This document shows, piece by piece, positions 2,352-63,563 of a DNA stretch of 64,000 nucleotides; within the stretch, counting starts at the first letter, position 1; each line of letters starts with the position of its first letter. Location: assembly GCA_001662655.1 (NCBI GenBank), contig KV460257.1; one strand, 5' to 3'. Below the pieces are notes generated by a model. It was given only the letters and a program-made list of their open reading frames with translations. It had not been told where the DNA came from and did no database searches. The stretch is from Pseudogymnoascus verrucosus (Eukaryota). The position numbers and the translations under genes were made by a program.

Positions 2352-4114
2352 TTAAAAATGCTCCTTCCAAAACGAGAAGTTAACATCCGGCGTCGTAACC
2401 TCCTTACACGCCTTCTTGATCCCCCTAGCCGCCGCACTCGGTCCGCAGAAGTACACCCCGACATCCGTCCTCATCGTGCCCTCCAGCCCACTCATATACG
2501 TGCGGTCCATAATACCCTCACGCATCCCCGTCAACAGGCGGTGAAAGTCGGGACGCCCGAAGTTCGTGCGTGTCTTGAGCTCAGTGAGCGGGTCAACGTC
2601 AGAGCCAACACTGTTAAGCACGATGTTCTGTGCGGTATCTGCGTCGAGGCGCTGTGTAAGGTAGGTGTGGATGCGCAGGAACTCGGTGCCAGAGGAGCCT
2701 GGGATGCTAGCAGCCTCGAAGGACTGAGCCTCGAGCGAGGACAGCAGGGTTTGGAACCACTCGAAACTAGTGGTGTCTTTGCAGACCCAGATGAACTCGA
2801 CACGGCGCAGACGCTTTGGCGGGTTTGGGCTGTTGCGGAGATGCCAGATGTTCTTGAGGATGGCAGCCCAGGGGGTGACACCGATACCGGTTCCGATGAG
2901 GACGGCGATTTCGTTGTCGAAGACATCTTCGGCGGGAGCACCGTAGGGGCCGTCGATGCGGAGCTTCGGCATCTGTTGTCCGTTTTGGAGGGCGACTTCG
3001 TACATGCCGTTGGGATCGACGCCGTCGTAGAGTTTGGCTTGGGCGGGACCGGCGCCGAGGGCGTCTCCGAGGGCGCGGGTGAAATCACCGACTTGGCGGA
3101 CGTGGACGGAGATGTAGGGGTCGAATGGGCAGGAGGTGATGGTAAAGGGATGCCATTGCTGGCGGGACACTGAAGGAACTTGAAGGAAGAGCCATTGGCC
3201 TGCCTTGTACTTCATCGATGGCTTCTTGAATTGGATCTCCATGGCGTCTGATAAGGCGTTAGTAGGAACTTGGTAATGAACGATTGTATTACTTACCATA
3301 TGGATGGCGAATGACGCGGATGATCTCCGTCTCTCTTCTCGCACGAATCTCACGGTAGAGGCGCTCAGCGAAGTAGAGGCCGCCTCCCCAAAGCTCCCAT
3401 CTCCATCCTTCGTACCCAACGCAGTGGTCCCAGAAGTCTTTTCCGGCAAATGGAGAGAAAGGATCCGCGGTGTCTCGCACAAAGCATCCAGTCGCATGCG
3501 TATATAATCCAAGCAAAAACGGGATAAATAGATGGTGCGTATACCAAAAGGTCTCAAAAGATTGTTGGCGAATCTTCGCATGTGCAGTTGTGTACATAAG
3601 AAGCATGCAGAGGAGCATGATATGTCCTGTGATACCACCGGCTTGAGCGTAATGGATCTGGATTGCGGTAACGGGACGAATCTGTGTCTTTTCGACGTTG
3701 AAGAAGTTCACGTAATGGGCCGAGACGTGGATGACCGTGTATACCAGCATCGAGTATGCGACCTGGCGATGGAACCATTGCGACTCGTCGAGAGGCAGGA
3801 ACCGGACCTTTGGTCTGACCCATCGTAATATGTTCCTGCACATCGGTAACAGAATCATGGCCCCATCGACCGATAGAACGAGACCCGCGCCTCGTGATAA
3901 CCACACCGAGTATGTCAATGTATTCAGCCCCGCTAACCTTTCGTCCATTGATTGCTTGTACCTGTAAAACGTTAGATGCTACTCAACTCCCACGCCAGAG
4001 GAAAACTACTCACCATCCCAAGGCGAATAAGCCGATGTGACCGCCATGGAACAAGACGTTGAAGACCAACTTCGTCCCCCACAGCTGATTCTTCACAGCT
4101 TCCAAAAACCCCAT
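2352..4114 (-). CDS. noxA: NADPH oxidase A (gp91phox-like), 2 introns
   Basis: ATG 4114 (MGFLEAVKNQLWGTKLVFNVLFHGGH). Haem-binding His residues (FHRQVAY, HVSAHY, YTHHLF), FAD motif HPFTITS, IDGPYG, NADPH motif GTGIGVTP, VYFCGP and C-terminal FWKEHF. No NoxB N-terminal extension. Confidence 0.95.
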
Positions 4115-43000: not shown

Positions 43001-45420
43001 ATCCCACTCCCACTCTCCACCCACGAAGAAGAAGCCGATCCACCCACGAAACAAACAACCACCGGATCCACTTCGGCAGTAAAAGGCGGTTGCCAAGTTT
43101 ACTGCCAAGACAGGCGTGAGCGCCCAGAAGTGGTGTGTGTGTGTGTGTGTGTGTCTGGACTTTTGGGGTGGTGGTGGTAGTGGTGGTGAGTGCGTGCGCG
43201 AGCTGGTGGGTGAGAAAAGTAGGGCCGTGGAGTGGGCTCGGGTAATTGACCAGTCACGTCTCTCCAACCACGACCACCAAAGCGTTTCTCCGAAGTTACC
43301 GCGCACCATCGCCATACCACTGGCCAAAAAATGCATGACCTGACGGAAATGGCCTACCGGTTAATTATAGTGCGGAATACACATCACTACCCCAATAATT
43401 CTCAAGCGGCTTTAGCTCACTTGGGAGAGCGCCAGACTGAAGTTAACTTCGGTTCGATATCTGGAGGCACTGTGTTCGATCCACAGAAGCCGCAAACTTA
43501 CTGCGAATCGGGGATCACCTCGATTAACGAACACTTCTTTTTTTGCCATTTTTTTCTACTTTTGTATTATTTTTCGGGCGGGGTATGGGGGGGATGGGGA
43601 AGACGGGGAGTAAGTGAAGTGAGATAGTTTACCATGGGAAAGATAGATGGAGGGAAGGAAGTAATGAAGTCTATATACTATACTAAACACTCCCATGGAC
43701 ACAATTACCACCACCACCACCGCCGTCGCTGTAGCTTTTTTCCCCAAAAAAAATCCCCCGTGAAAAGGAACGCATTCCCCATCCCCATCCCACTCCCCCC
43801 TCCCCGCCGCGAAACGGGAGAAAACCAGAACCCGCCCCTGCAGCAGTATCAATCAACATATAAAAACAGCGCCCGTAGGCCGGTAGAACGCAATTAAGCA
43901 AGGAGGGAGTAGAACGCAATTGCCATAACCTAGGGGACTTGGTGGTGCGGGCGGGGGTGATGGGTGAGGGAGGGGGAGCGGCTGTTGGTGGGGTGGGTTT
44001 TGTTACTGTTGTTGTGTTCTCACCACCTCCTATTCTCACCACCGCCCATTCTCACCACTCCAATATCTCCTCACCTGCCTCTCTTCCCCCTCACCAGTCC
44101 ACGCAGCACCCGCTTTCTCACATCCATCTTCCTGTTCGACTGGGCATTGCTCCTCGCAGATAAGTCGTCGGATGCTGAGAAAGAAACTCGTAGCAAGGGC
44201 GTTTAGATTTCATGGCTGGCATACTACAAGTAGTTTAACAATAACAAAACCACGGATGTTCCTACTACCACACTATTATCAGTAAGTATCTACTACCATC
44301 TCATATTCCCTTTTGAGCCTCAACTTCCCCCTCCCCACCAACCACCTCCAACACCTTGCCCGTGCTCACAGATAGCACTTTCCTCTACCGTGCACACCCA
44401 TCCCTTCCCATCACGCAACGATCATCCCCTCCCCTTCCCTTCCCTCCTCCCAGCTAGATTGCGAGAGTCGGTACGTACAGAGACTAAGAAACAAGAAATA
44501 ACCCGCCCCGGCAAGAAATGGTGATCGGCGCGCTGATCGGGGATCGGCTTCGGTAGTGGGAGATGGTGGGAGATGGCGTGCTGGGACTAGACTGGGGGGT
44601 GAGGGCGGGAGGTACCGCGCCGTTGCCAAGGAAGGGGGTCTGGGTCTGGATCGTGAGAGGGGGATGGAGATGGGGAGATGGGGGAAGATGCAGATGGAGG
44701 TCGGGGGGGAGGTAGAGATAGAGACGTAAGACATAGAAGAGATGGCGATATCAAAAGGATGAATAGATAGGATCTCATCTCTCGATAACCCAGACCTCGC
44801 ACCATCAAAAGAAAAGAAAAAAATTATATAAGCACCACCCCATCCCACTCTCCATTCTTCTCGGACTTCCCTCCACAGGTCGGTCCCTTGCGGATAACCG
44901 AATCTTTTTGGTTTCAAACAAACTACGGGGAGAAGTTTGGGGGAACGTTGCGGTGGGATGGAGGGATGGGTTTGAGGGGGGGGCGCGGGGGGTGGATTGC
45001 GAGCGAGGGAAGGGGTGGGGCTGAAAATGGGAGATGGTGGTGAGAAGGTGGTGAGAATAGGGGACGGTGAGAATAGGATACGGTGAGAATAGGAGACGGT
45101 GAGACTAGGAGACGGTGAGAATAGGAGACGGTAAGAAGATAGTAGTAAAAACAAAAGAATTCCTCCTCCAATATCCACATCCACGCACCACCCGGTACTC
45201 ACATATCCCACAATCAACGAACAGATGCAACTCTCAGTTTTCCTCAAGTTATTTCAACCCCTTGCCTTGGTTCACCTCTACCGCCCGTCGACTGCTTTTA
45301 TAATCTGCTCCTCCTAGAGGGGTTCTAAAAAGAGGTTTTCTTTCAAGACTCGCGCGCTGGGTGGTTTAGGGACTGCTGTGGGGGGAGGGGCAGGGGGGTT
45401 TTCTAACATATCAAAACAGC

Positions 45421-45436
45421 AAAAAAAAAAAAAAAA
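45421..45436 (-). terminator. Oligo-T RNA polymerase III terminator of the 5S gene
   Basis: An A-run on + (T-run on -) lies immediately after the 5S 3' end. Confidence 0.75.
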
Positions 45437-45504
45437 ACATACAACAGTGGGTATTCGCTGGTGGTCACCCACCCAACTACTAATCCACCGATCTCAAGCT
45501 TGAA
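45437..45504 (-). rRNA. 5S rRNA gene, 3' half (interrupted)
   Basis: Reverse complement TTCAAGCTTGAGATCGGTGGATTAGTAGTTGGGTGGGTGACCACCAGCGAATACCCACTGTTGTATGT matches the 3' half of Pezizomycotina 5S. Confidence 0.93.
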
Positions 45505-45708
45505 GTGGATTGATACTCTGGACGGTGCCATTTGGACTAGCGGGTGAGCGTCGCCGCCCTTAAGTTTTTGATGCCTCACGATGATCCGGTTGTCCCCCTC
45601 AGCTACCTGATGGCGACCACGTCAACACGCACGAAGTGGGTCTCGTATTAAGACGCGATGAACGCGATGCACCGCGACTTTGGATGGCCATGGATAATCT
45701 GGTACCTG

Positions 45709-45766
45709 GGTGAACGAAGGTGAGCGGGGGTGAGCGAGGGTGAGCGAGGGTGAGCGAGGGTGAGCT
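45709..45766 (+). repeat. 10-bp tandem repeat (GGGTGAGCGA)n upstream of the captain
   Basis: About 5-6 copies visible directly, followed by TATAAAA at ~45776. Confidence 0.85.
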
Positions 45767-45863
45767 TGAAAATGGTATAAAAGGCACCCTCCCGCCATGT
45801 CTACATTCTGCAGTCTACCATCTACAACATTCTTCATTCAATTTCAAGGACTTCACTAGTACT

Positions 45864-48525
45864 ATGGGACGGAAAACCCTCTCTAAAGAAGGACAAGCTG
45901 CTCTAGCACAGTCGCGAGGCTGTTTTGAGGAGAAAACATCTAAAGAACAGAACGTATTAAGTTAAGTTGAACAACGTTATCTCTCTAGCGCTACTAAAGC
46001 TAAGCACGTAGACGTGGGGGAGTTATTCCAAAAGTATGTTAGACTTAATCACACTGTGTATAGTGCTAACAGAGATATTAGTTTTCTTGCTGCAAAGGGT
46101 ATACAGATTGAGTCAGTGCTACAACATAACAGGGCTCTGTATAAAAACTTTGTTAAATACTATGCTTTATCACGATATGGTCGAATTGAGGAACTTCTAA
46201 CAGTCCACAGTATTGTTAATATGTAGCACCGATATGTTAGCTATGCTCGCATTACAAAATCTAAGATTGACAAGAACATCTCTCGTAATGTTGCTAATGT
46301 ATGATCTACACGCCCCTATCGAGAATTAATTAACATTTATCTAGTATATTAAGGGTTCTTTAAAGGCTAAGATTGGTCTGAGCACAAAGAAACGTGACAA
46401 ATACTTAGTCACTAACAAAGACCTAACAGTATTAATAACACATCTGTGGTGTTATGATGATCATGACTATCTACAGGAGCGCTATAGAGTCTAGATATCT
46501 TTTGCTTTGATTTTCTTTGCTAATACTGGCGCAAGAGGTGGTGCCTGTGTAGAATCAAGTTGCTATAGGGGGACAAATGAAGCAATTGTTTATAAGGTAT
46601 GTCTCGAGTCTATATATAGAGCGCTACTTTACTAACTAATTAGGATTGCCGAGTTCATTTGTTGCGATGCGCCAATGGCAGTTTTACTCTTAAACTTGAA
46701 GTAGTTCAGCGATATTTAAAAGGAAGGCGTCATGATGAGAATGACAAGTACGTAAGTTCTTAGTAGTTATTGAGCAATGCTTACTAGACATAGCCTCGAA
46801 ATGGTCATGGAGTCAGTAGACGATTTGCAACATAACGGAGTAATGTTTTTTTTTGCTATAGCAATGGCTAATAATGCATTTAAATTCTACGACACTCTAG
46901 AAAAACTTTTGAAGGCTCGCTTGCCAGTAGGGAGAGATTCGTAGACTCTAGGATGGAAAGAAGAAGCCCTTGACCGTCCTGTACTTCGGATGGCATCTTT
47001 AAATGGCGTACACGAAAGTAGGGCACTGACCTTTGCAACTCTCTAAGATCAAATCGTCTCTCTTGGAAAACGTGCTAGCTATAGGGACACTGTGAAGATC
47101 CATGCAATTTGCGCTAGGGTTGCAAATAAGATTAAAGGTAAGCTTAATCTATACAATACCTAGAGTCTTCTAATTGTGCTAAGATCCATAGGTACGAAAA
47201 CAGGTTCTAGGTTAGAAAAGCGATGCTGTATATAATGAATACTACAGATCAAAGCTTGTAAAAGAAGATATATTTTCTTTGTACTCTAACAAAGATAAAT
47301 CTATAGAAACTACTAAGCACATCGAGGTGTTATGCAGCATAGGTCATCAACGTAACGAGAACGCCCCTAGAGACCTTACTCGCAAAGAGAAAGATGAGCT
47401 TCATTAAAGCGCTAAAGTCTAAGAGCTCAATATGCACATTAAGGAGGCGACGGCAAAGATGCCTCTAAATCCGGACAAAGGCTCAGCCTAGTTCAAAGAG
47501 CGACAGAAGCTATACACTCAAAAAAGTATGCTATACCGATCAGCTCGCGCATCAAATAGAGAGAAGTGGTTCTCTAGTAGTTTCGATGAAGAGGCTCAAA
47601 GGCAATTGGAACAAGAGGATGATGAAACTTTACCAAAACTAAGAGGCACATTTCCTTTGACCCACCACCTTATGCTAGAACGCGATCGTATTGCTAATAC
47701 ATTGTTTGTTGCCAAAGGCCTACAAAGCAAAGCAGGGCAAGCTGTTTTACAAGATGTCTACAGCTTATGCAGTAATGATAACCAAGTGGCATATCGACCT
47801 AATGAATGGCCTGTTAATGGAGCATGCCCTTCTAACAACTATCCGAAGGTTATTGCAGAGTAAGCATAAAATGCAATTCCAAGTTAATCAAAGCTAACTG
47901 ATTTAGGTTGAGTCTTCCCATACACTCAAAGCACATACATAATTGCCGCTAACGCGAGCAGCGAGATACCCTGAGTCAACAGCCTAGCTCCTACTCCCGC
48001 CAGCTTCGGAACCAAAAGCTCCCATTTGCAGAGTACTGCTATGCATGTTGCAAATGGAGCCACAGTAAGGATAACTGGAGCAATCATTGCAAATGGCATC
48101 TTGAAAATCTAACAATAAGATGCGGGCTCCTTACTTTTCGCTATACGCTTGCAATCGCAGGTTACTGTCCATTCTGTATAGCCGATGAGAGCCTTCTTCC
48201 ATCACGAAGGATGCTGCAATGGATGACGAAGCCTACGCTAATCAATCATATTGACAAGCACCTTGAGACTAGCGCAAAAAAGGAATGTCCACATCCCTTA
48301 TGTTGCGTAGCACTCATGAACGCTTCAGACTCCTAGGCCCATTTTCAGGATGCTCACTGTATTGAAGAACCACGTTCAAACTGTGTCACTATGAAACGGA
48401 AGAGCGAAGATGACGAGGAAAATGTGCAAGACCCGAAGGGCGAGGCTTTGAGCTGTATGAGCAAGAAGGCAAAGGGTGAGCATGAGAGGGTAGAGGAGGA
48501 ATATGCGAGATCTACGACATCATAA
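45864..48525 (+). pseudogene. DUF3435 tyrosine recombinase (Starship captain) with C-terminal Cys/His zinc-finger-like region; RIP-inactivated
   Basis: Manual multi-exon translation: HLWCYDDHDYLQERYRV; FANTGARGGACVES (catalytic Arg motif); LGKRASYRDTVKIHAICARVANK (degenerate HxxR); QVLG*KSDAVYNEYY (catalytic Tyr region); YCYACCKW...HCKWHL...GYCPFC...CPHPLC...HFQDAH. Many TAA/TAG codons fall at Gln/Trp positions. Confidence 0.88.
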
Positions 48526-49923
48526 GATAAATAATACTATTGTTCTTTTTAAGTTGCGATTTAAACCGTGACTCAAATTGCGGGTGGTTGCTGTGGCTGA
48601 GTCCTTGTACGACGGTGGTGCTTGAACATTTCTAGACTCGGCATTAGATACATTCCGCGGGGTGGACCAAAACCAGTTAATATCAGGTGGGCAAAGGGCG
48701 ATAGGTCTTATTGACAGAAGCAACTAAGCGTGCTACGTTCAAGTCTGTTTGCTCCTGACTTCTCAAGTCACGACAGTCAATTCAAATCATATGCACACTC
48801 CCGCCTCGTTGCACAACCTCCTTACCTCCCGTCCTCACCATGGAAAACATAAGATACAACCTTTCCTCCCCATTTTCCTTCATGCTCACTCGAATTATTT
48901 ATTTGGTGTCACATCTCCGTCTCCTCCAGTGGTTGCTACTTATCACCATCGCCATTCTCACATTTCATCCACTGTGTCCTCTGCTCTCCACCACCACGAC
49001 AATGTCGCCGCAGCAGCAAAATAATGAAAATGGAGGAGTTAATAACTCAGGCAATGCAGGTTCTAGTATGGCGTATGTACATGTTTTCATATTTCCGACC
49101 CTCTTTTAAGTCGTGCAACAATATGATGCTGTTCTTTGCCTTATCACGTGACACACTTCTTCCAAATTGTAATTCTGGCCTGCAGAATCAGGCATATAAG
49201 GCACCCACATTCTGAGACGTGTAGTGTACGGGTGTAGTTTCGTACGGTAGAGTAGCCTACGGGCCACGGCATAAGTAAAGGCCGTGGCCCCATAGAATTC
49301 TACAAGTTTGGTTCGCGCTCGGAAATCACAAAATAACTGAGCCAAAACGCTGATGCAAACCACCGCCTCCAGATTCTCCTTAGCCATCCTCGCCGCGGGT
49401 CCTCTGGTGCCTCCGCATTACCCTCTCATCGAGTGGTCGACCAATGTCTCCAGAAGCGACAATCCCGTTACGGATTTTCTCTTCGAGTTTATCCCCGTCG
49501 AGAAATCCCAGAATAATCCAGGAAGTGCATGATTAGAATGCCAGTCGTTGAGAAGATTGGGCGGACTGCAGTTGTGGGGAGGCAGGAGGTGCCTGGAGTA
49601 CACTCACTAGCGTCAGCAACCTTGGGCCGGCCTGTGAAGGCGAACGCAGTCAGATATGATGGTGGGCAGATCATCAGCTGAGGGCCTATCGGACTATCAG
49701 TGGATCTAGGTTAGGCGGAAGTTAATGGAGCTCTCAGGAAAGCTCCTTTCGTAGAAATAGTTGACGAATTTGAAACTGAAGGATGGGCAGGGCTCTTCAA
49801 AATGGCGATTTACTGAAAAATAATAAAACTGCTTCATATTTGCACGAGCTGGAGGACACGAAATACTAATTGGTACATATCAAATAGCCCAAGGTGAGAG
49901 GTAGGGAATGAGCAAAGACGAAC

Positions 49924-50228
49924 AGCGATCTGCTGGCTACTACCCGATGATACCGGTGAACACGGCCCTCAATTTTCTGCTGGTCACCACCTGGTGATAC
50001 CAGATGTTGACCACACACCTCAATTTTATGGTGCAGTGCCACCACGCGTAAGCAAGCCACTATGGCCACATAAATATAACGTAGCGCTATGGCAGCAGTG
50101 AAATATGTAATTAGTTTATAATGAACTGCCCTCGAACTAGCAACTAGGAAAGGGCCAAATGGCGAACTGAGTGCAGGGAGAAGTTAGCCAGTCACATTCG
50201 TAAGTGTACTCGGTACATAATAAGCCAT
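49924..50228 (+). repeat. Left arm of an internal inverted repeat (partner 53504-53758)
   Basis: Collinear with the reverse complement of 53504-53758 (for example GGTGATACCAGATGTTGACCACACACCTCAATTTT and GGGCCAAATGGCGAACT.AGTGCAGGGAGAAGTTAGCCA). The left copy has an extra ~50-bp tandem duplication. Confidence 0.9.
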
Positions 50229-51323
50229 GTCTAATTGTGTCATTTAGCCAGACTCCTAACTTAGGCTTTCTATTCTCTTAATTAGTGTCAAGCTCATAAC
50301 AAAACTAGAGGACCTGTATTAATAGAGTATTTTAACACCTGTAAGGGCTCTATTGTTTAATAAACAACTAAGCAAGCACTCGACTAGGGCCTATATCGAC
50401 CTATGTAGTAGAGTAGGAGTACATTTTAAGGCTGTGCTAGCAGAAGGCGCTGCATACTATAAACAAGAAACGCGACTCGTTACAACAAGCACAGCTTCTA
50501 ACGTACTAGAGAAGAGCAGAGAACATCCTTCTAGCGATATAATTACCTTTCAACTTAACGCTAAAGAATAGCGTGAGAAATTTAATGCAGAAGTGGCTAT
50601 AAGAGAGGCTCTAGAGATCGAGATGATAGGAATTAAAGGAGAGAATGCGGAACTGCTGACTGAGATGAAAGCCCTTCGCGAAGAAGAAGCAACGTGGATC
50701 CAAGAACATAAAAAAGCACGGGAGGTTCTGCTGATAACATCGCGCATACTTTAAGAACGAGCATTAAAGGCATCTGAAGACTCATAGAGGGTTACACACG
50801 CCGCAACTTCCCTAAAGCTGGGAAGCAACCCATGTATGTAGTTTCGTCCGAAATATATTCCTCAATGCATTCTGATCAAACAGCCGAAGTAGTAGGACCT
50901 GAATGATACCGCTGGGGAAGCAAAGACGGTCAGGTGTATCCAGGATAGGTACATACATCGGTGTCTACGTGATGAGGCGAGATGCAGAGAAAAGTACGGG
51001 GGACGTGGGACGAGTATTGTCGCATTGTGAGGTGGCGAATGATTCCGGGGGTTTTTTAAGCTCCGTTGACGAACTGGAACATAAAAGGATTAGATGTTAC
51101 AGGGTCCATTCCATGCAGTTACAGCGCTGCTGTCAGATCAATCAGATCTTTTGAGGCTCGAGTCTGAATTGATTAATCTGTTAAAAATACCGAGTCTGAT
51201 TTGAATTGATTGGATTGACTGATATATTTGATTGTTAATGTAATCTGACAGCGGTCCTATGCCGTTATTGGGACACACTTTGAGAATTTACTTTCTTCTG
51301 TAATCAGTCTATCATATAATGTC

Positions 51324-53248
51324 TCAATGCTTGAGTTTGAGTATGGCCCAGGATGCCAGTCTATGTCCCAGTATGATTACAATCACAATTCCGATATTCT
51401 GCTTCTGATTTTCCGTCTTATACCCAAACTGATTCAAAACAGTTTCCCCGGCAATATGACACTGGCTTGTCGGTATTGGGTCATATCTACAGTGACATCC
51501 ACTGCCACAGTCGTATGTCTCTCCGTCGAACTGGGTGACCATCATGCCCTGGAAGACGTAGTTCTGGAAGTTCCAGTAATAAAACCCATACTTGTAGAAT
51601 GAATTCAGTTTCTCAGGCGGCACCAAGGCGCCTGCAGTCGCAAACCACAAAACGTTAATGAACGCAACTAGTACAAGAGCACCAACCAAATTCGGAACAA
51701 TCGAGATAGCAAGAACCACCACGGCTTCGGCGGCTAGTCAGTCGAAAAAAAGCCAAGTGACCCAGGTAAGGAAGGCCGTTAATGAATTTTGACAGTTAGA
51801 GAGCCAATAGAAGATGATGGAAAACATGATGGAGAAGAGAAACAGGTGCGGCATGCCAACCAAGAAATTGGACACTGAAAACAGGGTGGCCCCGTATAAA
51901 CCGTTGCGTTGCTCATGGATGTACTGTTAGTGGTCTTCAATGAAAGCGGGGACGTATGTCACTGCCATGAACGCCATGAATCCGCAGCTAACAAGGAGCG
52001 CGTTAATCAGAAGCTGGATGGAGTCTTGGTTGCGGTCCAACTGCAGCCAGAGTGTTCCCATCAGGATAGCCAAGCCCATATACATGACGAGCCGAAACGT
52101 GTATGCCATGATATCGCGGTATGCCTTGAGAAAGCTTCGCTGCAACAAGGTCATCAGCTGGCCGCCTATACCGGGCTTGTCGTCGGCTTGGATGCTCAAA
52201 CCCTCGGACGAACGATCAGTAGCCAGTATTGACTCGCAAAGAAGCTGAGCGCTGTTAGATGCTTGCCAGAGAGACTGCAGGTCCGCAATGCGTTGAGAAG
52301 CTGCGGTTATGTCTTGTGAAAAGTCAATATTGACTAACTCAAGCAGAAAATCTGCAGGATTGACTCGTTGAGGGATTGTTACACCGATGCCCTCGCAGTA
52401 GTCAATCACAGCGCTCCTAGCGCCAAAGTACTGTGTTTTCCCCGCCGATAGTAGTAGCAACTTGTTGAAAAGATTAAACGTTGACGTGGACGGTTGGTGA
52501 ATAGAACAGATAATGATGAGATTGTTGCGCTTTGCAAGGTCGCGTAGGTAGCTGATAATGTGAAAACTGGCACTGAGTCGAGCCCGCTGGTGGGCTCATC
52601 GAGGAAAAGAATCTTTGGACCAGTGACGAGCCGTTCAGCAACTGCCAGCCGTCGCTTCTGGCCTTTTGAAATCCCCTTCTCAACAAGCGCACTGGCTTGG
52701 TCAACAAGACCAAAGGATTTGAGAAGTGTATCGATGCGGGCTTGAGATTCATGTCTGAAAGATCTATTCGCCATAAGTATATTTCATGGTCATCGAGAGC
52801 TTACTCACGTTATGCCTGCCAGCTTTGAGGCGAATTGCAGTGTTTCACGAACAGTCAATGACCCAATAAAGGTATCATGGTCCTCCACAAATGACGTGAC
52901 ATGACGGAACGCAGCATCTGGTAGTTGTGTACTGTTGATACAGACTCGGCCGTCAACAGTAGCATTAATAGGTCGCCTAGCAAGAGCATTCAAGAGCGTT
53001 GTCTTGCCACAACCCGATGGCCCCATGACGGCGCAGCAATCACCTAAAGATGGGTCAGTTCGTGGGTGCATATGGACATCAGGGCGATGCATACCAGAAT
53101 TTACAAGACCTTCTACATTATCAAGAATATTTCTGGTTTGTCCGGTCCTGCGATCCTTGATGGCGACAGTCAATCCGCTCCACGAGATTTTGTGTACAGT
53201 GGTATTGAGAAAGTGTTTCTCAGCAACTGGACGCTGCTCGATATCCAT
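51324..53248 (-). pseudogene. Half-size ABCG (White-type) transporter pseudogene (element cargo)
   Basis: Walker A GPSGCGKT, signature ISKGQKRR, Walker B ILFLDEPTSGLD, then the membrane domain (RSFLKAYRD, EQRNGLYG). Frameshift near 52575 and in-frame stops at ~51927 and ~51740. Confidence 0.88.
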
Positions 53249-53503
53249 TCTCAGATACGGCTTGAATGCACTGGATTGAATGTATACAGTATAGTTTCAA
53301 GGATTTTCTCAATATTTTACTATGGAGGCAACAATGAACCGCATCAATATTGTCGTGACTCGTGAGCTGGCGTAGATCTGTGAGGGCCTAAGGTCAGTCT
53401 GCCTCTACATCCGCATTCCCAGACGCACAGGTTGCATACCTATAATTCAGTGCATTACCAAGACACTCCGTCGAGGAAACTCGCATGTGAAATACGTTAC
53501 GTT

Positions 53504-54280
53504 ATGGCTTATTATATACTAATTACACTCACGAATGTGATTGGCTAACTTCTCCCTGCACTTAGTTCGCCATTTGGCCCTCTCCTAGTTGCTAGTTTGA
53601 GGGCAATTTATTTTAATTACATATTTCAATACCGCTATAGCACGATGTTATATTTACGTGGTCTTAGTGGTTTACTTACACGTGGTGGCACCTTGCAGCA
53701 GAAAATTGAGGTGTGTGGTCAACATCTGGTATCACCGGGTGGTGGCCAGCAGATCGCTACTCTTTCAAATTGTGAGCCATTATTTCCGTCAACTTATTAA
53801 CACTGTTACTCACGGGCATAGAGGGCAACCGCACGTGGGATTTGAGCCACAATTGAATCCGCAACTGAGACGTAATCTTAGTTTCAGAGTGACGACGATT
53901 TGTAAAACGCCAACTACAACGCCAACATCGTCAATGGTTTCCCTCACAACATTGTTAGCCACAATTGGCAGCCGCACCCGCAATTTGAGCCACAGTTTAA
54001 ATCGCAATTTGAAAACGACAATAGTATTATCTATCTTATGACGTCATAGATCCCTTATTTCTCCCCTCCACCTTCTCATCCTCATTCTTTGCCTTTTTGC
54101 TCACATAGTAAAGCCTCGCCCTTCGTGTCTTGCATATTTTCCTCATCGTCTTCGCTCTTCCGTTTTCTAGACACACAGTTTGAACGCGGTTCTCCAATAC
54201 AATGCACATCTTCAAAATGAGCTCTAAAATCTGATGGGGACTTGAGATGTGCGTGACACATAGGGTGTGGACGTTTTGAT
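53504..54280 (-). mobile_element. Inverted remnant of a related element: captain 3' end, downstream sequence and right arm of the inverted repeat
   Basis: 53970-54275 (reverse complement) aligns with 48285-48590: PHPMC...AHFEDVHCIGEPRSNCVSRKRKSEDDEENMQDTKGEAL versus PHPLC...AHFQDAHCIEEPRSNCVTMKRKSEDDEENVQDPKGEAL. 53504-53758 aligns with 49924-50228. Confidence 0.85.
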
Positions 54281-54318
54281 TCCCCATAAGTAATGAAAGC
54301 CCACTATAGGCGCTTCGA

Positions 54319-56166
54319 TTACTTTAGTGTCACGTGGACGTCGACTTGTGATTCGTCAAATCTCCTCGATGCATGGCTCGTCTCCTCGTCATCCGGACTC
54401 CATTCTTCCGGCTGGAAATTAGGGTTACTGTAATGTGCAGTATTATAGTGACTATTTTTGAACATGCTTGTCTGGAAGATCGGTGCCGATGGGTCGTTCC
54501 AGTCGCTCTCGTACTCGTACTTGGAGTGCCGAAACTGGTTGCCCAAACTAGACAGAGGAACTTCAACATGAAGATTGCGAGTGCGTTGTGGTTGTGATGG
54601 TGCGCTATGGACTGAAGGAGCAGCAGCCGGGACGATTGGCGTGCCAGAGTCGTGGGGAGATACCGCTGATATAGGTGGGACATACTGCATGTTTGGTGTC
54701 GACACTGATGTATCGAATGGATAGGTGGGTGTCAAGATAGGCTCGTAGTCGCCGAGGGGGGTATATGTCGAGGGAAAGCCATGATTACTCAGAGCTGCCA
54801 GAGACAGGCCAGGTATGTTCACTGTACCGGGCAGGTAAAACGAGTTCAAGTTGGGTATCGGCGATGGATCCATAGCACGATTGAAGACGCCACCACGGTT
54901 AAACCGGATATTACTAGCAGCGGACGCGCTATCGATGATCTGATGCTGTCGTAGAGATTGGGAAGCGTTGGTATACTTGCATAAGATGTCATAGTGGCCA
55001 GGTTGGTAAAGAAAGTGAACGGTGGGTCCAGCAGGGTTGATTGGAATGCCATTATCATCCTCGGCCCGGATAAGATGACTATTAACGTGTGTGCCACTCC
55101 TGTCCTGGTAGACAATCTCGACGGCGATACTCATTGGATTCATGAGGACGTCAATCAAAATGGTCACCCCTAGATTCTCAACCTCTATGTTCAGAGGCTC
55201 TAGCATGTCCTTGCAGAAGTTGCCGACCCCGTCTGGAATGAAGCCTTGGTTAGTGACAGAGATAGCCTTCAAAAAAGCACTGGCAAAAAGTCTGAAGTAG
55301 TACATTATGGCGCTAGAAACCTCCTCGTCGTTGAAGCGCCGAAGGATCAGTGAGTTTGCATCTGATTGTGGCCCCACGTGTATGGCAGCGAGATCCGTCA
55401 ATAGGTTGATTACTTCACCCCTAATATCCTCAAAGATCCATTTCCGATGGTCGCACCACATTTCAATAGAGCCTGTTAGGTTCATGCTCCCATACTCTTC
55501 GTCTATCCGGTCCTTGCTCCCAAGATTGTGGAAAGTCCCGAGGTAGGGGAAGTTCATAGCTAAAGCAGTTAGCGCGTGGTCCTACCATCATCTGAGTTTA
55601 CCGGGCCCAATATCAAAAGCTACGATTCTAAAATGGAGAAAAGCAGGTTGATGTAGGTTTGAGAATACGGACATCGCCATCGACAGTTGGCATCGTCGAG
55701 CAACGGTCGATAGTGACTGTAGGTCTGACATAACTGCTGCTAAGTAGTCAGTAGTGATTTTTATGTACAGCTGGGACGGCCTACTGAAGCTTTGGCCATA
55801 TAGCCTGGATCGGCCTTTGCGTGTTCGTCTCTGATATCGTGAGTGCTCTTCTCCCCCCCCACCAAAGGTCCCTGTAATTCAATTAGCACAACTCCACGCC
55901 AAAGCGAATAGCTGCAGCCTTACTTTCAAGTCTGGTTGATACCCTCTCGCCGGCGCCTCTAGGGTGGCCATATCGTCCGCGGTTGGTGGGTTATCCAAGG
56001 TGCTGTTGTAGCGCTGTATCTGACTCCCGAAGGAGCCAAGATCAGTAAAATTTAATCCTAGATTCAACGTCGCAGCCTGGAAATTATAGTCGCTGGGTAG
56101 GCTATTGCCTGATACTGACGCGGCATAAGCAAGGGACGAGAAAGGGATCGCTTGCGGCTGAAACAT
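54319..56166 (-). CDS. Otubain-like deubiquitinase (peptidase C65), diverged; element cargo, multi-exon
   Basis: MFQPQ...ARGYQPDLK | GPLVG...DPGYMAK | QTYSHYRPLLDDANCRWR (Cys loop) | ...YYFRLFASAFLK...FLYQPGHYDIL, with the fungal-type C-terminus FQTSMFKNSHYNTAHYSNPNFQPEEWSP. Confidence 0.82.
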
Positions 56167-58492
56167 CTCCCGCGAGAGACTGGAGTCTATTCACTTATTC
56201 TAGAGCACGAAGGAAGGCCAAGGCAACAGATGATCACTGGCGACGTGAGCGACGAAAGGAACCAAACAACAGTTCGACAGTGATGTGCATCTGCTCTTCG
56301 ATATGGAAAGTTTGAATTGTTGAACAAGTACTTTATATTCCAGGGGCGAGTATTCCCTACGTGTATATACTCCATCTGTCTCTCTTGAAGCTCCGAGGCT
56401 GACGACGTGCAATTGGAAGGCAATAATGGTCGCCGTTGCATGCAGTGAGAATAGATCGCCTTGCAGGCCGAGTGGTGCATGGCCCTTCCTTCAAATATCG
56501 CAAATGAGGCAGCACTGTGCACATCGGCTAGCCTCATATTCGTAGCTTGGCATCTTCATTCTTCTTTAGGACCAGACAACCTAGACTAATTGTTCTCCCA
56601 GGTTCTGGCCCATGTGAGGATCGTACGACAATCGGCAGATGCCCTACCCTGTTGGGAGATTCCCAAGCTTTGTCGTCTCCTGCATAACATACATGGACCA
56701 GATCCCTGTTGACACTTCTGCATCTGGCATCTGCTTGGTTGATCTGTGGTTATCGATTTCTGAGAGACAATAATGCGGGGCTTGGAGCCCAGTGCAGAAA
56801 CGATCCACTGCCCTGTATCAAAGAGAGACAAGGCAATACCCCGATTCAGGAGTATGAAATCCGCTAATTGAAAAAGACACTATGAGTCCCTGCGGGCGGA
56901 GTTAACTCCATATAGGTAAGTACCATACCCATGAGTGTTCAACTCGTTCAATGCATTGCCTTGGGTGCTTACTTCTGCAAGTGCCGCCGATTTGAACTGT
57001 CTTGATCCTTGCTCGGAATGCGATCCGCGCTTCCCATGAAACACATCAACGAATACATGAACTATACCGCCACTGCAATATCAATTTGCGTTCCCCAGAT
57101 CTTGTCAACGAAACGGATACGAGAGAAGAAAACCACCGCTATATTCTCTTTTTCCGCTTGGCTGCGTCGCTGGTTTCGTGAAGGGCACGGGGTGAGAATT
57201 CAACAGAGGTCCCGACCTGATTTCTACGCGATATGTCGCACACTCCTTCAAGCAAATCAAAGATAATAAGCAATTGGTGTAACAGCATTTGCCTGATCGG
57301 CAGCTTGACCGGTGAAATAATTTCGGTTTAGCTGGTGCAGCAAATAAGTCTATTGGTTTTATGCGAATTTCGTTCATGGGCATGATATTGAACGATCTCG
57401 AGGTGAGACATAGCTCGTTGTCAAATGCTTTGTGGGCTCTACACGCCACTACACGCCACTTTGCCGTCGCTAGTCTCGATATAGAGCGATCATCCGAGAC
57501 AGGGTCCTCTCACATCAGGTTCCTCATCTTTTCTTTCCCTCAAATACGGCACACCACCTATCAAAGCTCCTCTGAGCATACGAACAAAGTATTCACATTG
57601 TAGCTGTTGGACTAACAATCATTACTCTCCTCAGCAGGACTCTGTGCTACGCCTCCGTCTTCGCATACTGTCCGCCCTGCACGCGACGCGATCCCTTCCC
57701 TTGGTGTTGGTACGTTACTCGGATATCGGACGTCGTATAGCTCCGAGACATGTATGGGCGCGCGAGATTGGCTGCGCCGGCATAATGGGAATTGGGAGGC
57801 GGAGAGAAGGGAGACGGATATGCTGTACTCGAGTATCACTATCTTTGCCCCTCTAAAGTCCCGAACCATGTGGGGGGAGCACAAGTCTGGCCATCACCAT
57901 CCCCATTGCTACTACGAGAGCGCCACCACGCGCCGCGGTGCAACCACAGCTGTCCCTGACGCGCAGACAAGGCTCGGCACATCAGCACACTCAACTATTG
58001 TTTCAGAGAGCACGAATACCAAGTCTACCAAGCTTCGGATTGTTAAATCTTCGGCGCTGTTAGACCTTGCTGAGCTGGATTGTTCGCTCTTGACTAGGAG
58101 AACTCATAACTTACTACTTACTGAACAGCACCGACGTACCCTTGCTGGTTGACCCTTGTCAATCTCAGAGTACAAATTACGACGCTTGTTACTGATACGC
58201 ACCACCATCTACCTAAATCCGCTAAGGTCCATATTTAACCTCCCCCCACCAGATCATATACGCTCCCTCCCTCCTCTTCCCACGATTTTACCGAATCACA
58301 CCAGACGCTATTTTTTATGAGTCTTCGCATGATCATTTGACTCTCGGATTTTATCACTTTTATTGCATTCCGTAACTCAATATTGAGAACCTGAGCATCA
58401 GCATGAAAGATGGCGGTCACAAGAAGGCCATACATTTCGGCCCTGGCAATTCCACGCTATGCCTATTGGCACGATTAAGAGTATTAACCCAC

Positions 58493-58545
58493 TGAATGGC
58501 AGAGCGGACGGGATGCCCAGTTCTGTTGAGTCTATGGTCGTATGT
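58493..58545 (-). rRNA. 5S rRNA gene, 5' half (interrupted)
   Basis: Reverse complement ACATACGACCATAGACTCAACAGAACTGGGCATCCCGTCCGCTCTGCCATTCA. Its CTCAA can pair with TTGAG in the 3' half (helix II), consistent with both halves coming from one gene. Confidence 0.93.
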
Positions 58546-58864
58546 GATAATTACTTGCTTATCGGAAGATACATACCATATAAACCCTGCTCAGCTATGG
58601 CACTCTAGCTCTAGGGGCTAGGATAGCCTGCTTCGCATGTTGATATCTGTTACTTGATCGAGAACCAAGCAGACTTCGGGAGACTAAACCACCGAGAGGA
58701 CTAGCGGCGGACGCTCTGAGATAAGCTTGCGAGTCTGAGCTTCAGGTTAAAATGTACGCCACCGAAAGCCTGGAGGTGGGCTCATTGCTTATACGTCGTC
58801 ACCTGCGGGCGCTGTACCCCTCGCGAATGACGACGAGAAAAGCAACATTCTACTTTTCTCGTCG

Positions 58865-62150: not shown

Positions 62151-62831
62151 AATATGTTGGTAACGCAAACATACGTAAATGCCTTCAAGGCTGTTGTGAC
62201 GAGTCAATGTGCTTTGTGGGTTATCATCTTCACCTCCGCACTGGTAATAATATAATTCCGAAGCAGGTTATTTGGAGATGCTCACCATCACCGTCCATTT
62301 ACCATAATGATGCGTCATATTCATGTATGTCTCAGAATATCACTCCCATCAATATGTGCTGGCCGAGGCAGAACGAAAGCCCAACGCAGGTCGTGAGTAT
62401 GGTTATATCGAAGCTGATCACCGAAAAAAAGCTTTCATGTAGCTCAACACGCCCTAGTGTGGAACAATATCGTCTCTGGGTGGATTGGAGGCGTTAACCG
62501 TGCATATACTCGGATGCGGCCGTCCCTAGCGGGAAATCATCATCTGCAAGGCGGGGTGGAGTAGCGACGTGGTCCTCTGATTATCAGGGTCAGAGCAATG
62601 CCCATTACATTTTGATAATTTTCAAAGATGGAGAATTGATTTATGGTATCGAGATATTTTTTTTAGCAATTTGGTATATATAGATTTGTCCCTTTAATGA
62701 AATTCAAGTTATCTACAGCAGTCTACCTCAAGCCATTCTCACTTTACGATCACAATTGCTCTTCCTCATCGGTCTTCTTCTTCCATCCACATCCACCTAT
62801 CATCACCAACACTTCAAAGCCATTTCCTAGT

Positions 62832-63563
62832 ATGAAGTGTACCATTTTCAGCAATGGCAGGCTCGCCCTTTTTGCTCTCGCCATCACACAATTCAGCCCC
62901 ATCCTAGCCCACCCTTCCATAGTCGAGCGCGGTTCCCCCATTGCCCTGGGAGCTGCCAAAACATACGGAGCAATCGCAGCCACGACTCTCACTAGCACAG
63001 GCAACACTCGCATCACCGGCGACTGCGGAACCTGCCCTGGAACATCAATCACCGGCTTCCTCCCTGGAGTGTGTACCGGAACCACATCAGCGGGTGGGAA
63101 AGCAGCTTGCGCCGCAGAAGCCGCTTGTCTTTCCGCATACAACAATGCTAGAGGTCTTGCCTCTACCGCTACAGCTCTCCCATCATCGGACCTCGCAGGC
63201 TTAGCATTGGCTCCAGGCGTCTACAAATTCCCCACGGCGGCAGCCACTAATTCGGCCACTCTGACACTTAACGGAGCTAAGAACACCATGGGGCAATTCA
63301 TCTTCCTCATCGACACAACCTTAACAACTGCCGGTAGCTCCAAGGTCGTGTTGATCAACGGCGCACAAGCTTGCAATGTTTATTTTATTGTTGGCTCATC
63401 TGCTACTATTGGAGAGTCAAGTGCAATGACCGGAAATATTCTGGCGCATACTTCTATTGGTCTGACCAATGCTGCGAGTAATAAAGGTACTCTCTGTGCA
63501 CTCAATGGAGCTGTTACTTTGATCAACAACTCCCTCACTGCTCAGACTGTCTGCAGTTCATAG
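62832..63563 (+). CDS. Secreted DUF3494 ice-binding-like protein, intronless
   Basis: Signal peptide, then IALGAAKTYGAIAATTLTSTGNTRITGD.G..PGTSITGF, DLAGLALAPGVYK, LTLNG, FIF, VVLINGAQACNVYFIVGSSATIG, GNILAHTSI and ALNGAVTLINN, the DUF3494 beta-solenoid pattern. Confidence 0.9.
   Translation: MKCTIFSNGRLALFALAITQFSPILAHPSIVERGSPIALGAAKTYGAIAATTLTSTGNTRITGDCGTCPGTSITGFLPGVCTGTTSAGGKAACAAEAACLSAYNNARGLASTATALPSSDLAGLALAPGVYKFPTAAATNSATLTLNGAKNTMGQFIFLIDTTLTTAGSSKVVLINGAQACNVYFIVGSSATIGESSAMTGNILAHTSIGLTNAASNKGTLCALNGAVTLINNSLTAQTVCSS

What the first reader, a model, noticed from the sequence alone, without database searches (positions are those of the whole stretch)
45437..58545. A compact Starship-type element that has split a 5S rRNA gene, with both ends resolvable to the base
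Seen: the 3' half of a 5S gene (45437-45504) and its 5' half (58493-58545) lie 13 kb apart, on the same strand and in the right order. The same TGAA sits at both junctions. The inner ends are imperfect inverted repeats (GTGGATTGATACTCTGGACGGTGCCATTTGGACTAGCG versus reverse complement GTGGGTTAATACTCTTAATCGTGCCAATAGGCATAGCG; 28/38 by manual count). The first gene is a DUF3435-like tyrosine recombinase. Established: some Starships target dispersed 5S genes. Inference: this is an unusually small, now immobile element, and it is invisible in the ORF track because the captain is shattered by stops.
Basis: partly seen in the sequence, partly recalled or inferred. Interest (0 to 1): 0.88.

Follow-up and report, generated by a model that had tools for sequence, protein, structure and literature searches.

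The report
Dead small Starship splitting a 5S gene
A 13-kb mobile element of the fungal "Starship" kind, whose own recombinase gene is now riddled with stop codons, sits inside one copy of the 5S ribosomal RNA gene of a Pseudogymnoascus fungus; this is a good example of something already known.

Summary
A minus-strand 5S rRNA gene is split into a 5' half (58545..58493) and a 3' half (45504..45437). Between them lie 12,988 bp bounded by imperfect inverted ends (28/38, or 29/39) and TGAA at both junctions. The first gene (ATG 45864, reading inward) is a DUF3435 tyrosine-recombinase "captain" with at least 9 in-frame stops. Its Pseudogymnoascus relatives are listed as Starship captains of fam06, the family that holds the Enterprise captain and is reported to favour 5S rDNA.

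Three metagenome contigs carry related captains with the same layout: antisense 5S 3' half, homologous terminal repeat, a 10-bp tandem array, then the captain. All break the 5S at the same spot. A sister strain's contig spans the same right junction.

Cargo is a half-size ABC transporter gene with 2 premature stops and an intact, multicopy otubain-like gene. An inverted partial copy of the captain's tail shows the interior was rearranged.

Two caveats apply. TGAA is not a simple duplication of the canonical 5S sequence, and relatives have TTCA at that spot, so the ends are fixed only to about 4 nt. No empty site could be shown.

Verdict: a real, degenerate member of a known kind, of modest interest.

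The parts
45437..45504 (-). 3' half of a 5S rRNA gene (68 nt, including the junction TTCA on the RNA strand). A T-run terminator follows on the RNA strand (A-run 45419-45436 on +).
   Evidence: RF00001 at 28.9 bits, E 0.016. Aligns at 90.9% to the intact 5S of L002. Sequence read.
45501..45504 (.). Left junction tetranucleotide TGAA (direct repeat with 58493-58496).
   Evidence: Relatives have TTCA (L007, L008) or AAACAC (L001) here.
45505..45542 (+). Left terminal inverted repeat, at the captain-proximal end.
   Evidence: 28/38 (29/39) against the reverse complement of 58455-58492; score 28 against a shuffle maximum of 27. Homologous left ends occur in L007, L001 and L008.
45708..45765 (+). 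Tandem array of 5.8 copies of a 10-bp unit (GGGTGAGCGA), between the left repeat and a TATA-like box (about 45776-45783) upstream of the captain.
   Evidence: TRF score 95. GGTGAGC occurs 5 times here, of 11 in the whole window. The same array lies at the same place in L001, L002, L007 and L008.
45864..48336 (+). Captain pseudogene: a DUF3435 tyrosine recombinase with several exons and at least 9 in-frame stops. An acidic tail continues to about 48525.
   Evidence: Pfam PF11917 at 33.6 and 38.6 bits on read-through frames. tblastn with P0002 and P0004 from ATG 45864. Relatives listed.
48337..48586 (+). Repeat A: the captain's C-terminal tail and downstream DNA. Its inverted partner is 53975-54222.
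   Evidence: 82.8% over 250 nt (I1/I2).
49976..50228 (+). Repeat B: part of the family backbone downstream of the captain. Its inverted partner is 53504-53753.
   Evidence: 85.9% over 255 nt. Matches L007 3570-3971.
51327..53248 (-). Cargo: a full-length half-size ABC (ABCG-type) transporter gene with one intron and 2 premature stops in the second exon.
   Evidence: Pfam ABC_tran, ABC2_membrane_7 and ABC2_membrane. 96% identical to P0038 (609 aa) over residues 195-609, with 2 stops. The annotated model in P. verrucosus is truncated at 392 aa.
53504..53753 (-). Repeat B', an inverted copy of B.
53975..54303 (-). Repeat A' and a remnant of a second captain copy. Only the last ~70 codons (C-terminal tail) remain, in inverted orientation.
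   Evidence: The translation of 54082..54303 (-) resembles the captain's tail. Nucleotide match. Collinear with L007 2896-3822.
54322..56166 (-). Cargo: an intact otubain-like cysteine peptidase gene (Peptidase_C65) with three exons, from a family that is multicopy in the genus.
   Evidence: Pfam PF10275, E 1.1e-28. The first and last exons are letter-identical to P0008 (544 aa). All 29 hits are Pseudogymnoascus or unnamed.
58455..58492 (-). Right terminal inverted repeat.
   Evidence: 32/42 identical to the left end of L007 when the TTCA tip is included. 5-7 contigs per related genome share 58449 onward but differ before it (table 7).
58493..58545 (-). 5' half of the same 5S rRNA gene (53 nt, including the junction tetranucleotide 58493-58496).
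   Evidence: Aligns at 88.7% to the intact 5S of L002. Helix I pairs 9/9 with the other half. No Rfam hit by itself.

Best explanation
This is a degenerate, non-autonomous Starship-type element of the Enterprise family (fam06). It is 12,988 bp long (45505-58492) and sits in a Pseudogymnoascus genome.

Inferred history. When its captain was intact, that tyrosine recombinase recombined the joined ends of an excised, probably circular copy with one dispersed 5S rRNA gene, between about nt 50 and 55 of the 119-nt RNA. Integration is orientation-specific: the captain end always abuts the 5S 3' half, and the captain reads opposite to the 5S. The insertion split that 5S copy and presumably inactivated it.

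Later decay. The captain gathered at least 9 premature stops and lost the Arg of its conserved HAIRAG motif (HAICAR here). The excess of C-to-T and G-to-A changes is RIP-like. The ABC transporter cargo gene gained 2 stops, while the otubain-like cargo gene stayed intact. The interior was rearranged: it holds an inverted partial copy of the captain tail plus downstream backbone. The present small size may therefore be secondary.

Shown: the anatomy, the family affiliation of relatives, the same junction architecture in independent copies, and the pseudogene states.
Inferred: the circular intermediate, the crossover position, RIP as the cause, and immobility.
For: 1. Split 5S, ends and TGAA: and (table 5c: 45502 joined to 58496 with TGT between, in 4 of 4 runs).

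2. Captain.
- DUF3435 hits at 33.6 and 38.6 bits.
- ATG at 45864, 359 nt inside the left end.
- 9 stops at aligned positions where P0002 has Q, W or R.

3. Family.
- Seven proteins scored E<=0.001, all from Pseudogymnoascus. Six are captain gene models; the seventh, P0007, is an MFS transporter model with a captain-like C-terminal part.
- The four captains at 44-50% identity (KFY94199.1, OBT76035.1, KFZ13483.1, KFY94270.1) are listed as 'tyr', fam06, in Tables S3/S4 of PMC11162782.
- Those tables place the Enterprise captain in fam06 too.

4. Independent copies.
- Of the 8 metagenome loci with related captains, 3 hold an antisense 5S 3' half, then a homologous terminal repeat, then a captain: L001, L007 and L008.
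- A fourth, L002, holds a deleted version that keeps only the last ~14 nt of the 5S.
- The other four (L003-L006) have less upstream DNA than the 359 nt needed to reach the junction.
- L001, L007 and L008 leave the 5S at the same place as the window.

5. Variable cargo among copies: alkyl sulfatase in L007, catechol dioxygenase in L008, and ABC transporter plus otubain-like gene here.

6. A different strain (run X2) has a contig covering 54907-58555 with 3 differences. It spans the right junction and runs 10 nt past the 5S (table 8).

7. Mechanism. Hephaestus moves through a circular intermediate formed at a 4-bp flanking microhomology (passages of bioRxiv 10.64898/2026.09.21.753150).

8. Mutation bias against L007. 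C>T 87 and G>A 92, against T>C 52 and A>G 67. 44 of 84 C>T changes lie in CpA. GC falls to 39.5% and TpA/ApT rises to 1.16 in 46-48 kb.
Against: - No empty site was seen. The Logan contigs of the relatives stop at the multicopy 5S, so an insertion polymorphism at this locus is not demonstrated.
- TGAA does not match the canonical 5S at that place, T(G/A)TGTA. Removing the element and one TGAA gives 117 nt, 2 nt short of the 119-nt canonical gene.
- Related copies carry TTCA or AAACAC at the left junction. The 4-nt repeat may therefore be part of the element's tips or a crossover scar rather than a target duplication.
- The direct repeat is 4 bp, whereas 5S-targeting Starships are reported to have 6-16 bp repeats.
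- The element is below the reported Starship size range.
- Family placement is indirect. It rests on relatives' labels in a published table, with no tree against reference captains.
- The RIP signal is moderate and both directions of transition are common.
- The 5' half alone has no Rfam hit.
Confidence: 0.85

Rival explanations
1. Deletion derivative. The element was once a much larger Starship, and internal deletion and inversion reduced it to 13 kb. 'Compact' then describes decay, not the element's native design. This refines the main reading rather than opposing it.
For: - There is an inverted partial copy of the captain tail and backbone (A' and B', 53504-54303), 83-86% identical to A and B.
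- The A-to-B spacing is about 220 nt in L007 and in the right arm, but 1,390 nt in the left arm.
- The second captain copy is cut off about 20 nt from the otubain stop codon.
- L007's element runs for more than 8.3 kb without reaching a right end.
Against: No full-length relative with both ends was available, so the native size of this lineage is unknown. The right end is a short, conserved terminus shared by several copies in related genomes (table 7), so both original ends are still present.
Confidence: 0.5
2. Composite of two elements. Two related elements, in opposite orientations, inserted or recombined at this 5S, and the right part (53.3-58.5 kb) is the remnant of the second one.
For: The inverted captain tail and backbone at 53504-54303 read leftward from the right part.
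Against: - No captain similarity lies between 54.3 and 58.5 kb on the minus strand. tblastn with P0002 and P0004 at E<0.01 hits only 45864-47854, and Pfam finds only otubain there.
- The right subterminal region lacks the 10-bp array and TATA box of a captain end.
- The two 5S halves add up to one gene.
Confidence: 0.08
3. A tyrosine-recombinase element of another kind (Crypton-like), or a dead DUF3435 gene that merely lies beside unrelated 5S debris.
For: - The size is below the Starship range.
- The direct repeat is short.
- Single stop-free captain pieces stay below the Pfam cut-off.
Against: - DUF3435 passes the cut-off on read-through frames.
- Relatives are catalogued as Starship captains.
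- The element carries cargo genes, which differ between copies.
- The 5S break, terminal repeat and captain keep the same order and spacing in the window and in 3 independent loci.
Confidence: 0.04
4. Assembly artefact: a collapsed or chimeric join at a multicopy 5S.
For: 5S is multicopy and short-read assemblies break there.
Against: A contig from another strain's data spans the right junction (record 7). The left-junction architecture recurs in three metagenome contigs. The two halves are complementary parts of one gene, not duplicates.
Confidence: 0.03

Closest known systems
Enterprise-family Starships that insert into 5S rDNA (for example the Osiris navis of Aspergillus fumigatus; Gluck-Thaler & Vogan 2024; Gluck-Thaler et al. 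2025 preprint)
   Same: It has a DUF3435 captain as first gene, terminal repeats, variable cargo, and an insertion that fragments one dispersed 5S copy. The captain's relatives are labelled fam06, together with the Enterprise captain.
   Different: - The host is a Leotiomycete, not Aspergillus.
- The element is 13 kb, against 47-152 kb for the A. fumigatus hotspot elements.
- The junction repeat is 4 nt, whereas repeats over 6 bp are associated with 5S targeting.
- The captain is dead.
- I could not see Figure 5C or Table S13, so I cannot say whether nt 50-55 is one of the five or more published 5S target sites.
Voyager (Macrophomina phaseolina) and its Alternaria relative
   Same: Site-specific insertion inside the 5S coding region, leaving two halves and presumably killing that copy.
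   Different: - Voyager belongs to another family (fam10).
- It inserts 20 bp from the 5S 5' start, with a 12-bp repeat. This element inserts near nt 50-55.
- Voyager is about 91 kb and active.
Hephaestus (Paecilomyces variotii), the experimentally studied Starship
   Same: It has a 4-bp flanking microhomology (TTAC), and a captain-dependent circular intermediate gives the likely mechanism.
   Different: It belongs to a different family, has a non-5S target TTAC(N7)A, and is large and active.
Bacterial integrative elements in tRNA genes
   Same: A tyrosine recombinase integrates a circular element into a conserved small-RNA gene. This analogy is drawn in the Starship papers.
   Different: Those elements usually restore the RNA gene with their own copy of its end. 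Here the 5S copy stays broken.

Membership tests
Starship (captain-mobilised cargo element) | A DUF3435 tyrosine-recombinase captain is the first gene at one end and is transcribed inward | tested here: met
   PF11917 at 33.6 and 38.6 bits on read-through frames. ATG at 45864, 359 nt from the left end, on the + strand. The gene is a pseudogene with at least 9 stops.
Starship (captain-mobilised cargo element) | Flanking direct repeats that reflect the target site | tested here: inconclusive
   TGAA is present at both junctions. It differs from the canonical 5S sequence at that place and from the junctions of related copies.
Starship (captain-mobilised cargo element) | Terminal inverted repeats (present in many, not all, Starships) | tested here: met
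   29/39 identity, score 28 against a shuffle maximum of 27. 32/42 between this right end and the left end of L007.
Starship (captain-mobilised cargo element) | Carries cargo genes that differ between related elements | tested here: met
   ABC transporter pseudogene and otubain-like gene here. Alkyl sulfatase in L007 and catechol dioxygenase in L008.
Starship (captain-mobilised cargo element) | An empty site in another individual, or the same element at two loci (the criterion used by starfish) | tested here: inconclusive
   The relatives' contigs end at the multicopy 5S and none bridges the locus. At family level, related elements occupy other 5S copies. The same element at a second locus could not be sought because no genome is held.
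Starship (captain-mobilised cargo element) | Size within the reported range (15,020-511,117 bp in the 2024 survey) | tested here: not met
   12,988 bp between the junction repeats, against the minimum quoted. Size is typical of the kind, not formally defining.
Enterprise family (fam06) of Starship captains | The captain falls in the fam06 clade of the reference captain phylogeny | tested here: inconclusive
   Indirect only. Four relatives at 44-50% identity (E 1e-39 to 1e-48) are labelled fam06, as is the Enterprise captain.
5S rRNA (Rfam RF00001) | Scores at or above the 38-bit gathering threshold | tested here: not met
   No hit at gathering threshold. The 3' half scores 28.9 bits and the 5' half gives no hit. 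That is expected for halves, and the joined sequence could not be given to the Rfam tool.
5S rRNA (Rfam RF00001) | The two pieces together make one complete 5S with helix I and a three-arm fold | tested here: met
   The halves align to adjacent parts of an intact 74.6-bit 5S. Helix I pairs 9/9 and the minimum-free-energy fold is a Y. Relatives' contigs join the two halves.
RIP (repeat-induced point mutation) as the cause of decay | An excess of C>T and G>A changes in CpA/TpG context, with AT enrichment | tested here: inconclusive
   179 against 119 transitions in the RIP direction, with 44 of 84 C>T changes in CpA. GC is 39.5% and TpA/ApT 1.16 only in 46-48 kb. The whole-element indices are unremarkable, at 0.85 and 1.22.

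The most novel reading that the evidence does not exclude
This Pseudogymnoascus lineage could be a naturally minimal Starship system with a 5S target not yet catalogued, at nt 50-55. From recalled knowledge, that is the 5' edge of the Pol III internal control region. Its features would be:
- short terminal repeats whose tips (TTCAGTGG / CCACTGAA) would form a perfect palindrome when joined in a circle;
- a variable 4-nt crossover;
- a conserved 10-bp tandem array next to the captain promoter, acting as recombinase-binding or circle-dependent promoter sites.

Because the retained 5S 3' half keeps the internal promoter, Pol III might start inside the element's end. Such a small, fully bounded element would be a handy model for how captains pick 5S genes.
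Probability: 0.12. Interest if true: 0.6.

Novelty: new member of a known kind. Interest (0 to 1): 0.35.

Why it matters
The finding adds a bounded, base-level example of a 5S-targeting Enterprise-family Starship in Leotiomycetes. That genus includes the bat white-nose pathogen, although this window matches a soil species.

- In the part of the 2024 survey's tables that I could read, only captains are listed for this genus, not elements.
- Together with three independent metagenome copies, it defines the left end of the lineage: 5S break point, terminal repeat, 10-bp array, TATA box and captain.
- It shows how such elements decay. The captain died first, the cargo is partly alive, and the interior is rearranged.
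- It does not change what is known about Starships. 5S targeting, short flanking repeats and degraded copies are all documented.

Tried and rejected
- Own-genome search was impossible: no genome is held for this window. Copy number of the termini, intact captains in the same genome, and other 5S copies could therefore not be examined.
- Rfam on the 5' half alone gave only a chance snoRNA match, E 5.9.
- Empty-site test with public runs. Four runs (X2-X5) were laid as Logan contigs, and X1 was left out as the possible source. No contig bridges the locus, because contigs stop at the 5S.
- In X3 and X4 several element bins have no cover (51296-53287, 56608-57271).
- X3 contigs approach the 5S from both flanks (records 10 and 14), but this proves nothing about occupancy.
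- An exact 21-nt right-junction pattern found nothing in metagenome contigs.
- No locus holds a right end, so the right junction of relatives is known only as loose ends.
- Linkage of the otubain-like gene to captains in other genomes was considered. Only one pair of nearby locus tags (V492_05993 and V492_05999) turned up, and they lie on contigs of different length. I rejected this as evidence.
- I looked for this element, or its F-103 and P. verrucosus orthologues, in the 2024 survey's tables. The two closest accessions are not listed (0 occurrences). One fam06 'tyr' entry exists for P. verrucosus, but its position near a contig end does not fit this window's layout. The stored supplement is cut, so later tables (elements, direct repeats) were not seen.
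- Earlier notes of this scan: nothing on this genome or topic.
- The ferric reductase gene at 2355-3978, a gene type often found on Starships, lies 42 kb away among ordinary genes. I did not link it to the element.

Full report
**1. What is in the sequence**

The 5S gene lies on the minus strand. Its 5' half is 58545..58493 (53 nt). Its 3' half is 45504..45437 (68 nt), followed by a T-run on the RNA strand.

Rfam gives limited support for the halves taken singly:
- At gathering threshold it reports nothing in the whole window.
- In E-value mode the 3' half scores 28.9 bits for RF00001, E 0.016, against a gathering score of 38.
- The 5' half alone gives no 5S hit.

Three other results show that the halves belong together:
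- Both align to adjacent parts of an intact 5S (74.6 bits) found on metagenome locus L002, at 90.9% and 88.7% identity with one base between the two alignments.
- In all four related genomes laid as contigs, a contig joins window 45502 to 58496 with only TGT between. The word depth of 510-1202 is far above neighbouring single-copy pieces, as expected for a dispersed multicopy gene (table 5c). The tool warns that depth is not a copy count.
- The first 9 nt of the 5' half pair 9/9 with the last 9 nt of the 3' half, and the joined halves fold as a three-arm Y.

TGAA stands at both junctions. The alignment score is 28, against mean 13.7, sd 2.2 and maximum 27 in 500 shuffles. The DNA between the two TGAA copies is 12,988 bp.

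**2. The captain**

Single stop-free pieces barely touch Pfam: one piece reaches 23 bits for DUF3435, below the 25.8 cut-off. Frames read through with X at stops pass it, at 33.6 bits (profile 106-201) and 38.6 bits (profile 218-395).

A protein search with one read-through exon found seven proteins, all from Pseudogymnoascus. One is 97% identical (strain VKM F-103), one is 59%, and four are 44-50%. These six are captain gene models. The seventh (62% over 48% of the query) is an MFS transporter model with a captain-like C-terminal part.

tblastn with two of them maps the gene from ATG 45864, 359 nt inside the left end, on the + strand.
- There are 9 in-frame stops at aligned positions where the relative has Q, W or R.
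- The changes of frame may be introns.
- The relatives' conserved HAIRAG motif reads HAICAR here.
- A further stop separates the last exon from its acidic tail.

**3. Which family**

The accession numbers of the four more distant relatives appear in Tables S3 and S4 of Gluck-Thaler & Vogan 2024 (PMC11162782; I saw table rows only). They are listed there as 'tyr' genes of fam06. The Enterprise captain is also fam06, Voyager is fam10 and Galactica fam07.

The text of that paper (passages) says:
- 23% of 222 curated insertion sites lie in 5S rDNA.
- At least five distinct 5S target sites exist.

The placement is indirect, because I built no tree against reference captains. The two closest accessions are not in the table, and the stored supplement is cut.

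**4. Independent copies**

A metagenome scan with an alignment of five relatives returned 8 loci.
- L007, L001 and L008 each hold the same order of parts: an antisense 5S 3' half, a homologous terminal repeat, a tandem array of a 10-bp unit, a TATA-like box, and the captain ATG.
- L002 holds a deleted version that keeps only the last ~14 nt of the 5S.
- L003-L006 have too little upstream DNA to tell.
- L007 matches the window at 83.5% from the 5S half through the captain.
- In the alignment, the window and L001, L007 and L008 all leave the intact 5S at the same place, after AAGC(TT).

Cargo differs between copies: alkyl sulfatase in L007, catechol dioxygenase in L008. This is family-level evidence for orientation-specific, site-specific insertion into 5S.

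In the related genomes, 5-7 contigs per run share the right end from 58449 into the 5S 5' half but differ before it (table 7). That fits several copies with a short conserved right terminus and variable cargo.

**5. Cargo and interior**

- 51327-53248 (-) is a full-length half-size ABC transporter gene, 96% identical to a 609-aa relative over the second exon. It has 2 premature stops there, and its public gene model in P. verrucosus is truncated at 392 aa.
- 54322-56166 (-) is an intact three-exon otubain-like gene. Its first and last exons are letter-identical to a 544-aa P. verrucosus protein, and the family has many paralogues in the genus.
- Two inverted repeat pairs lie inside the element: A 48337-48586 / 53975-54222 at 82.8%, and B 49976-50228 / 53504-53753 at 85.9%.
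- A' encodes the C-terminal tail of a second captain copy, cut off about 20 nt from the otubain stop codon.
- In L007 the A-to-B spacing is about 220 nt, as in the window's right arm, whereas the left arm has 1,390 nt there.

The interior has therefore been rearranged, and the small size may be the result of decay.

**6. The junctions are not fully resolved**

- The canonical 5S of a sister strain reads AAGCTT-GTGT-ATGGCAG on the window's + strand, and L002 has ATGT there.
- The window has AAGCT-TGAA-[element]-TGAA-TGGCAG.
- Removing the element and one TGAA gives 117 nt, 2 nt short of 119.
- L007 and L008 have TTCA, the reverse complement of TGAA, at the left junction, and L001 has AAACAC.
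- The reverse complement of the window's right end matches L007's left end through TTCA, at 32/42.

The 4 nt may therefore be element tips, a crossover scar or a target duplication. I cannot tell which, so the ends are fixed to about 4 nt. The break lies between nt 50 and 55 of the RNA.

**7. Mechanism**

The most likely mechanism is captain-mediated recombination between the joined ends of an excised circle and the 5S target. This has been shown for Hephaestus, which uses a 4-bp microhomology (passages and abstract of bioRxiv 10.64898/2026.09.21.753150). For this element the mechanism is inferred, not shown.

The captain's decay has a RIP-like bias. Against L007 there are 179 C>T or G>A changes and 119 in the reverse direction, and 44 of 84 C>T changes lie in CpA. 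GC is 39.5% and TpA/ApT 1.16 in 46-48 kb. The signal is moderate, and the whole-element indices are ordinary.

**8. Age and reality of the insertion**

A contig from another strain's data (X2) covers 54907-58555 with 3 differences, so it spans the right junction. Other X2 contigs cover the captain (10 differences in 2,612 nt) and the ABC gene (table 8). The insertion is thus shared by two near-identical strains and is not an artefact of one assembly.

No contig bridges the locus in the more distant relatives, so an empty site was not shown.

**9. Context**

The flanks carry ordinary genes: ATG14, ferric reductase, GH32, GH95, aldehyde dehydrogenase, ankyrin protein, myosin-1, acyl-CoA synthetase, Tos1, and an ice-binding-like protein. 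The element therefore sits in normal gene-rich DNA.

**10. Novelty**

5S-targeting Starships, short flanking repeats and degraded copies are all in print.
- A search for Pseudogymnoascus together with Starship found 1 paper, a DNA-repair review that I did not read.
- The 2024 survey lists captains for the genus. In the part of the supplement that is held, no element rows for these captains were found.
- The element is below that survey's smallest Starship, 15,020 bp.
- I could not see Figure 5C or Table S13. Supplements of the bioRxiv papers are closed. So whether nt 50-55 is a listed target remains open.
- The three 5S repeats visible in Table S1 are different sequences.

Verdict: a real feature and a new member of a known kind. 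Interest 0.35.

Noticed in passing
window 45708-45765; L001 255-340; L002 5835-5916; L007 296-371; L008 3230-3254: A tandem array of a 10-bp unit (GGGTGAGCGA, 3-8 copies) lies between the left terminal repeat and a TATA-like box upstream of the captain. It is kept in copies whose captains are only about 67% identical in DNA. It may be a recombinase-binding or promoter array. Its copy number seems to vary (the joint 45642->45762 skips 119 nt in three runs).
   Followed up: partly
window 62667-63560 (+): An ORF with an ice-binding-like domain (PF11999, E 4.8e-47) lies 4 kb right of the element. That fits a cold-adapted fungus.
   Followed up: no
window 45050-45137 and 44017-44069: A 16-bp tandem repeat (GGTGAGAATAGGAGAC, 5.5 copies) sits in the left flank, with an inverted partner about 1 kb away. 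Both lie outside the element, inside or beside a long minus-strand ORF (44414-45253) that has no Pfam hit.
   Followed up: no
window 48701-49976: About 1.27 kb in the left arm replaces about 217 nt of the family backbone seen in L007 and in the window's right arm. It is multicopy by word depth in related genomes, so it may be a nested small repeat element.
   Followed up: no
L002 5690-5740 and 12136-12255: On a 153-kb metagenome contig, a degraded captain copy keeps only the last ~14 nt of a 5S before a deletion into the subterminal region. A Copia-like retroelement fragment and an intact 5S gene lie 2-6 kb downstream.
   Followed up: partly
L003 1-320 (and L004): Another captain subfamily has about 7 tandem copies of a 39-40-bp unit directly upstream of its ATG, in place of the 10-bp array.
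   Followed up: no
L001 1-45 and L007 1-30: Two contigs of one metagenome assembly share the same sequence just outside the 5S terminator, yet carry different element subfamilies. Either the same 5S locus type is occupied by different elements, or these 5S genes sit in a larger repeat.
   Followed up: no
window 51327-53248 (-): Outside Pseudogymnoascus, nearly all the named hits to the ABC half-transporter cargo gene among the 120 listed are from Sordariomycetes (Chaetomium, Fusarium, Metarhizium and others, 46-56% identity). No other Leotiomycete was apparent. This may be database bias or a hint of horizontal origin.
   Followed up: no
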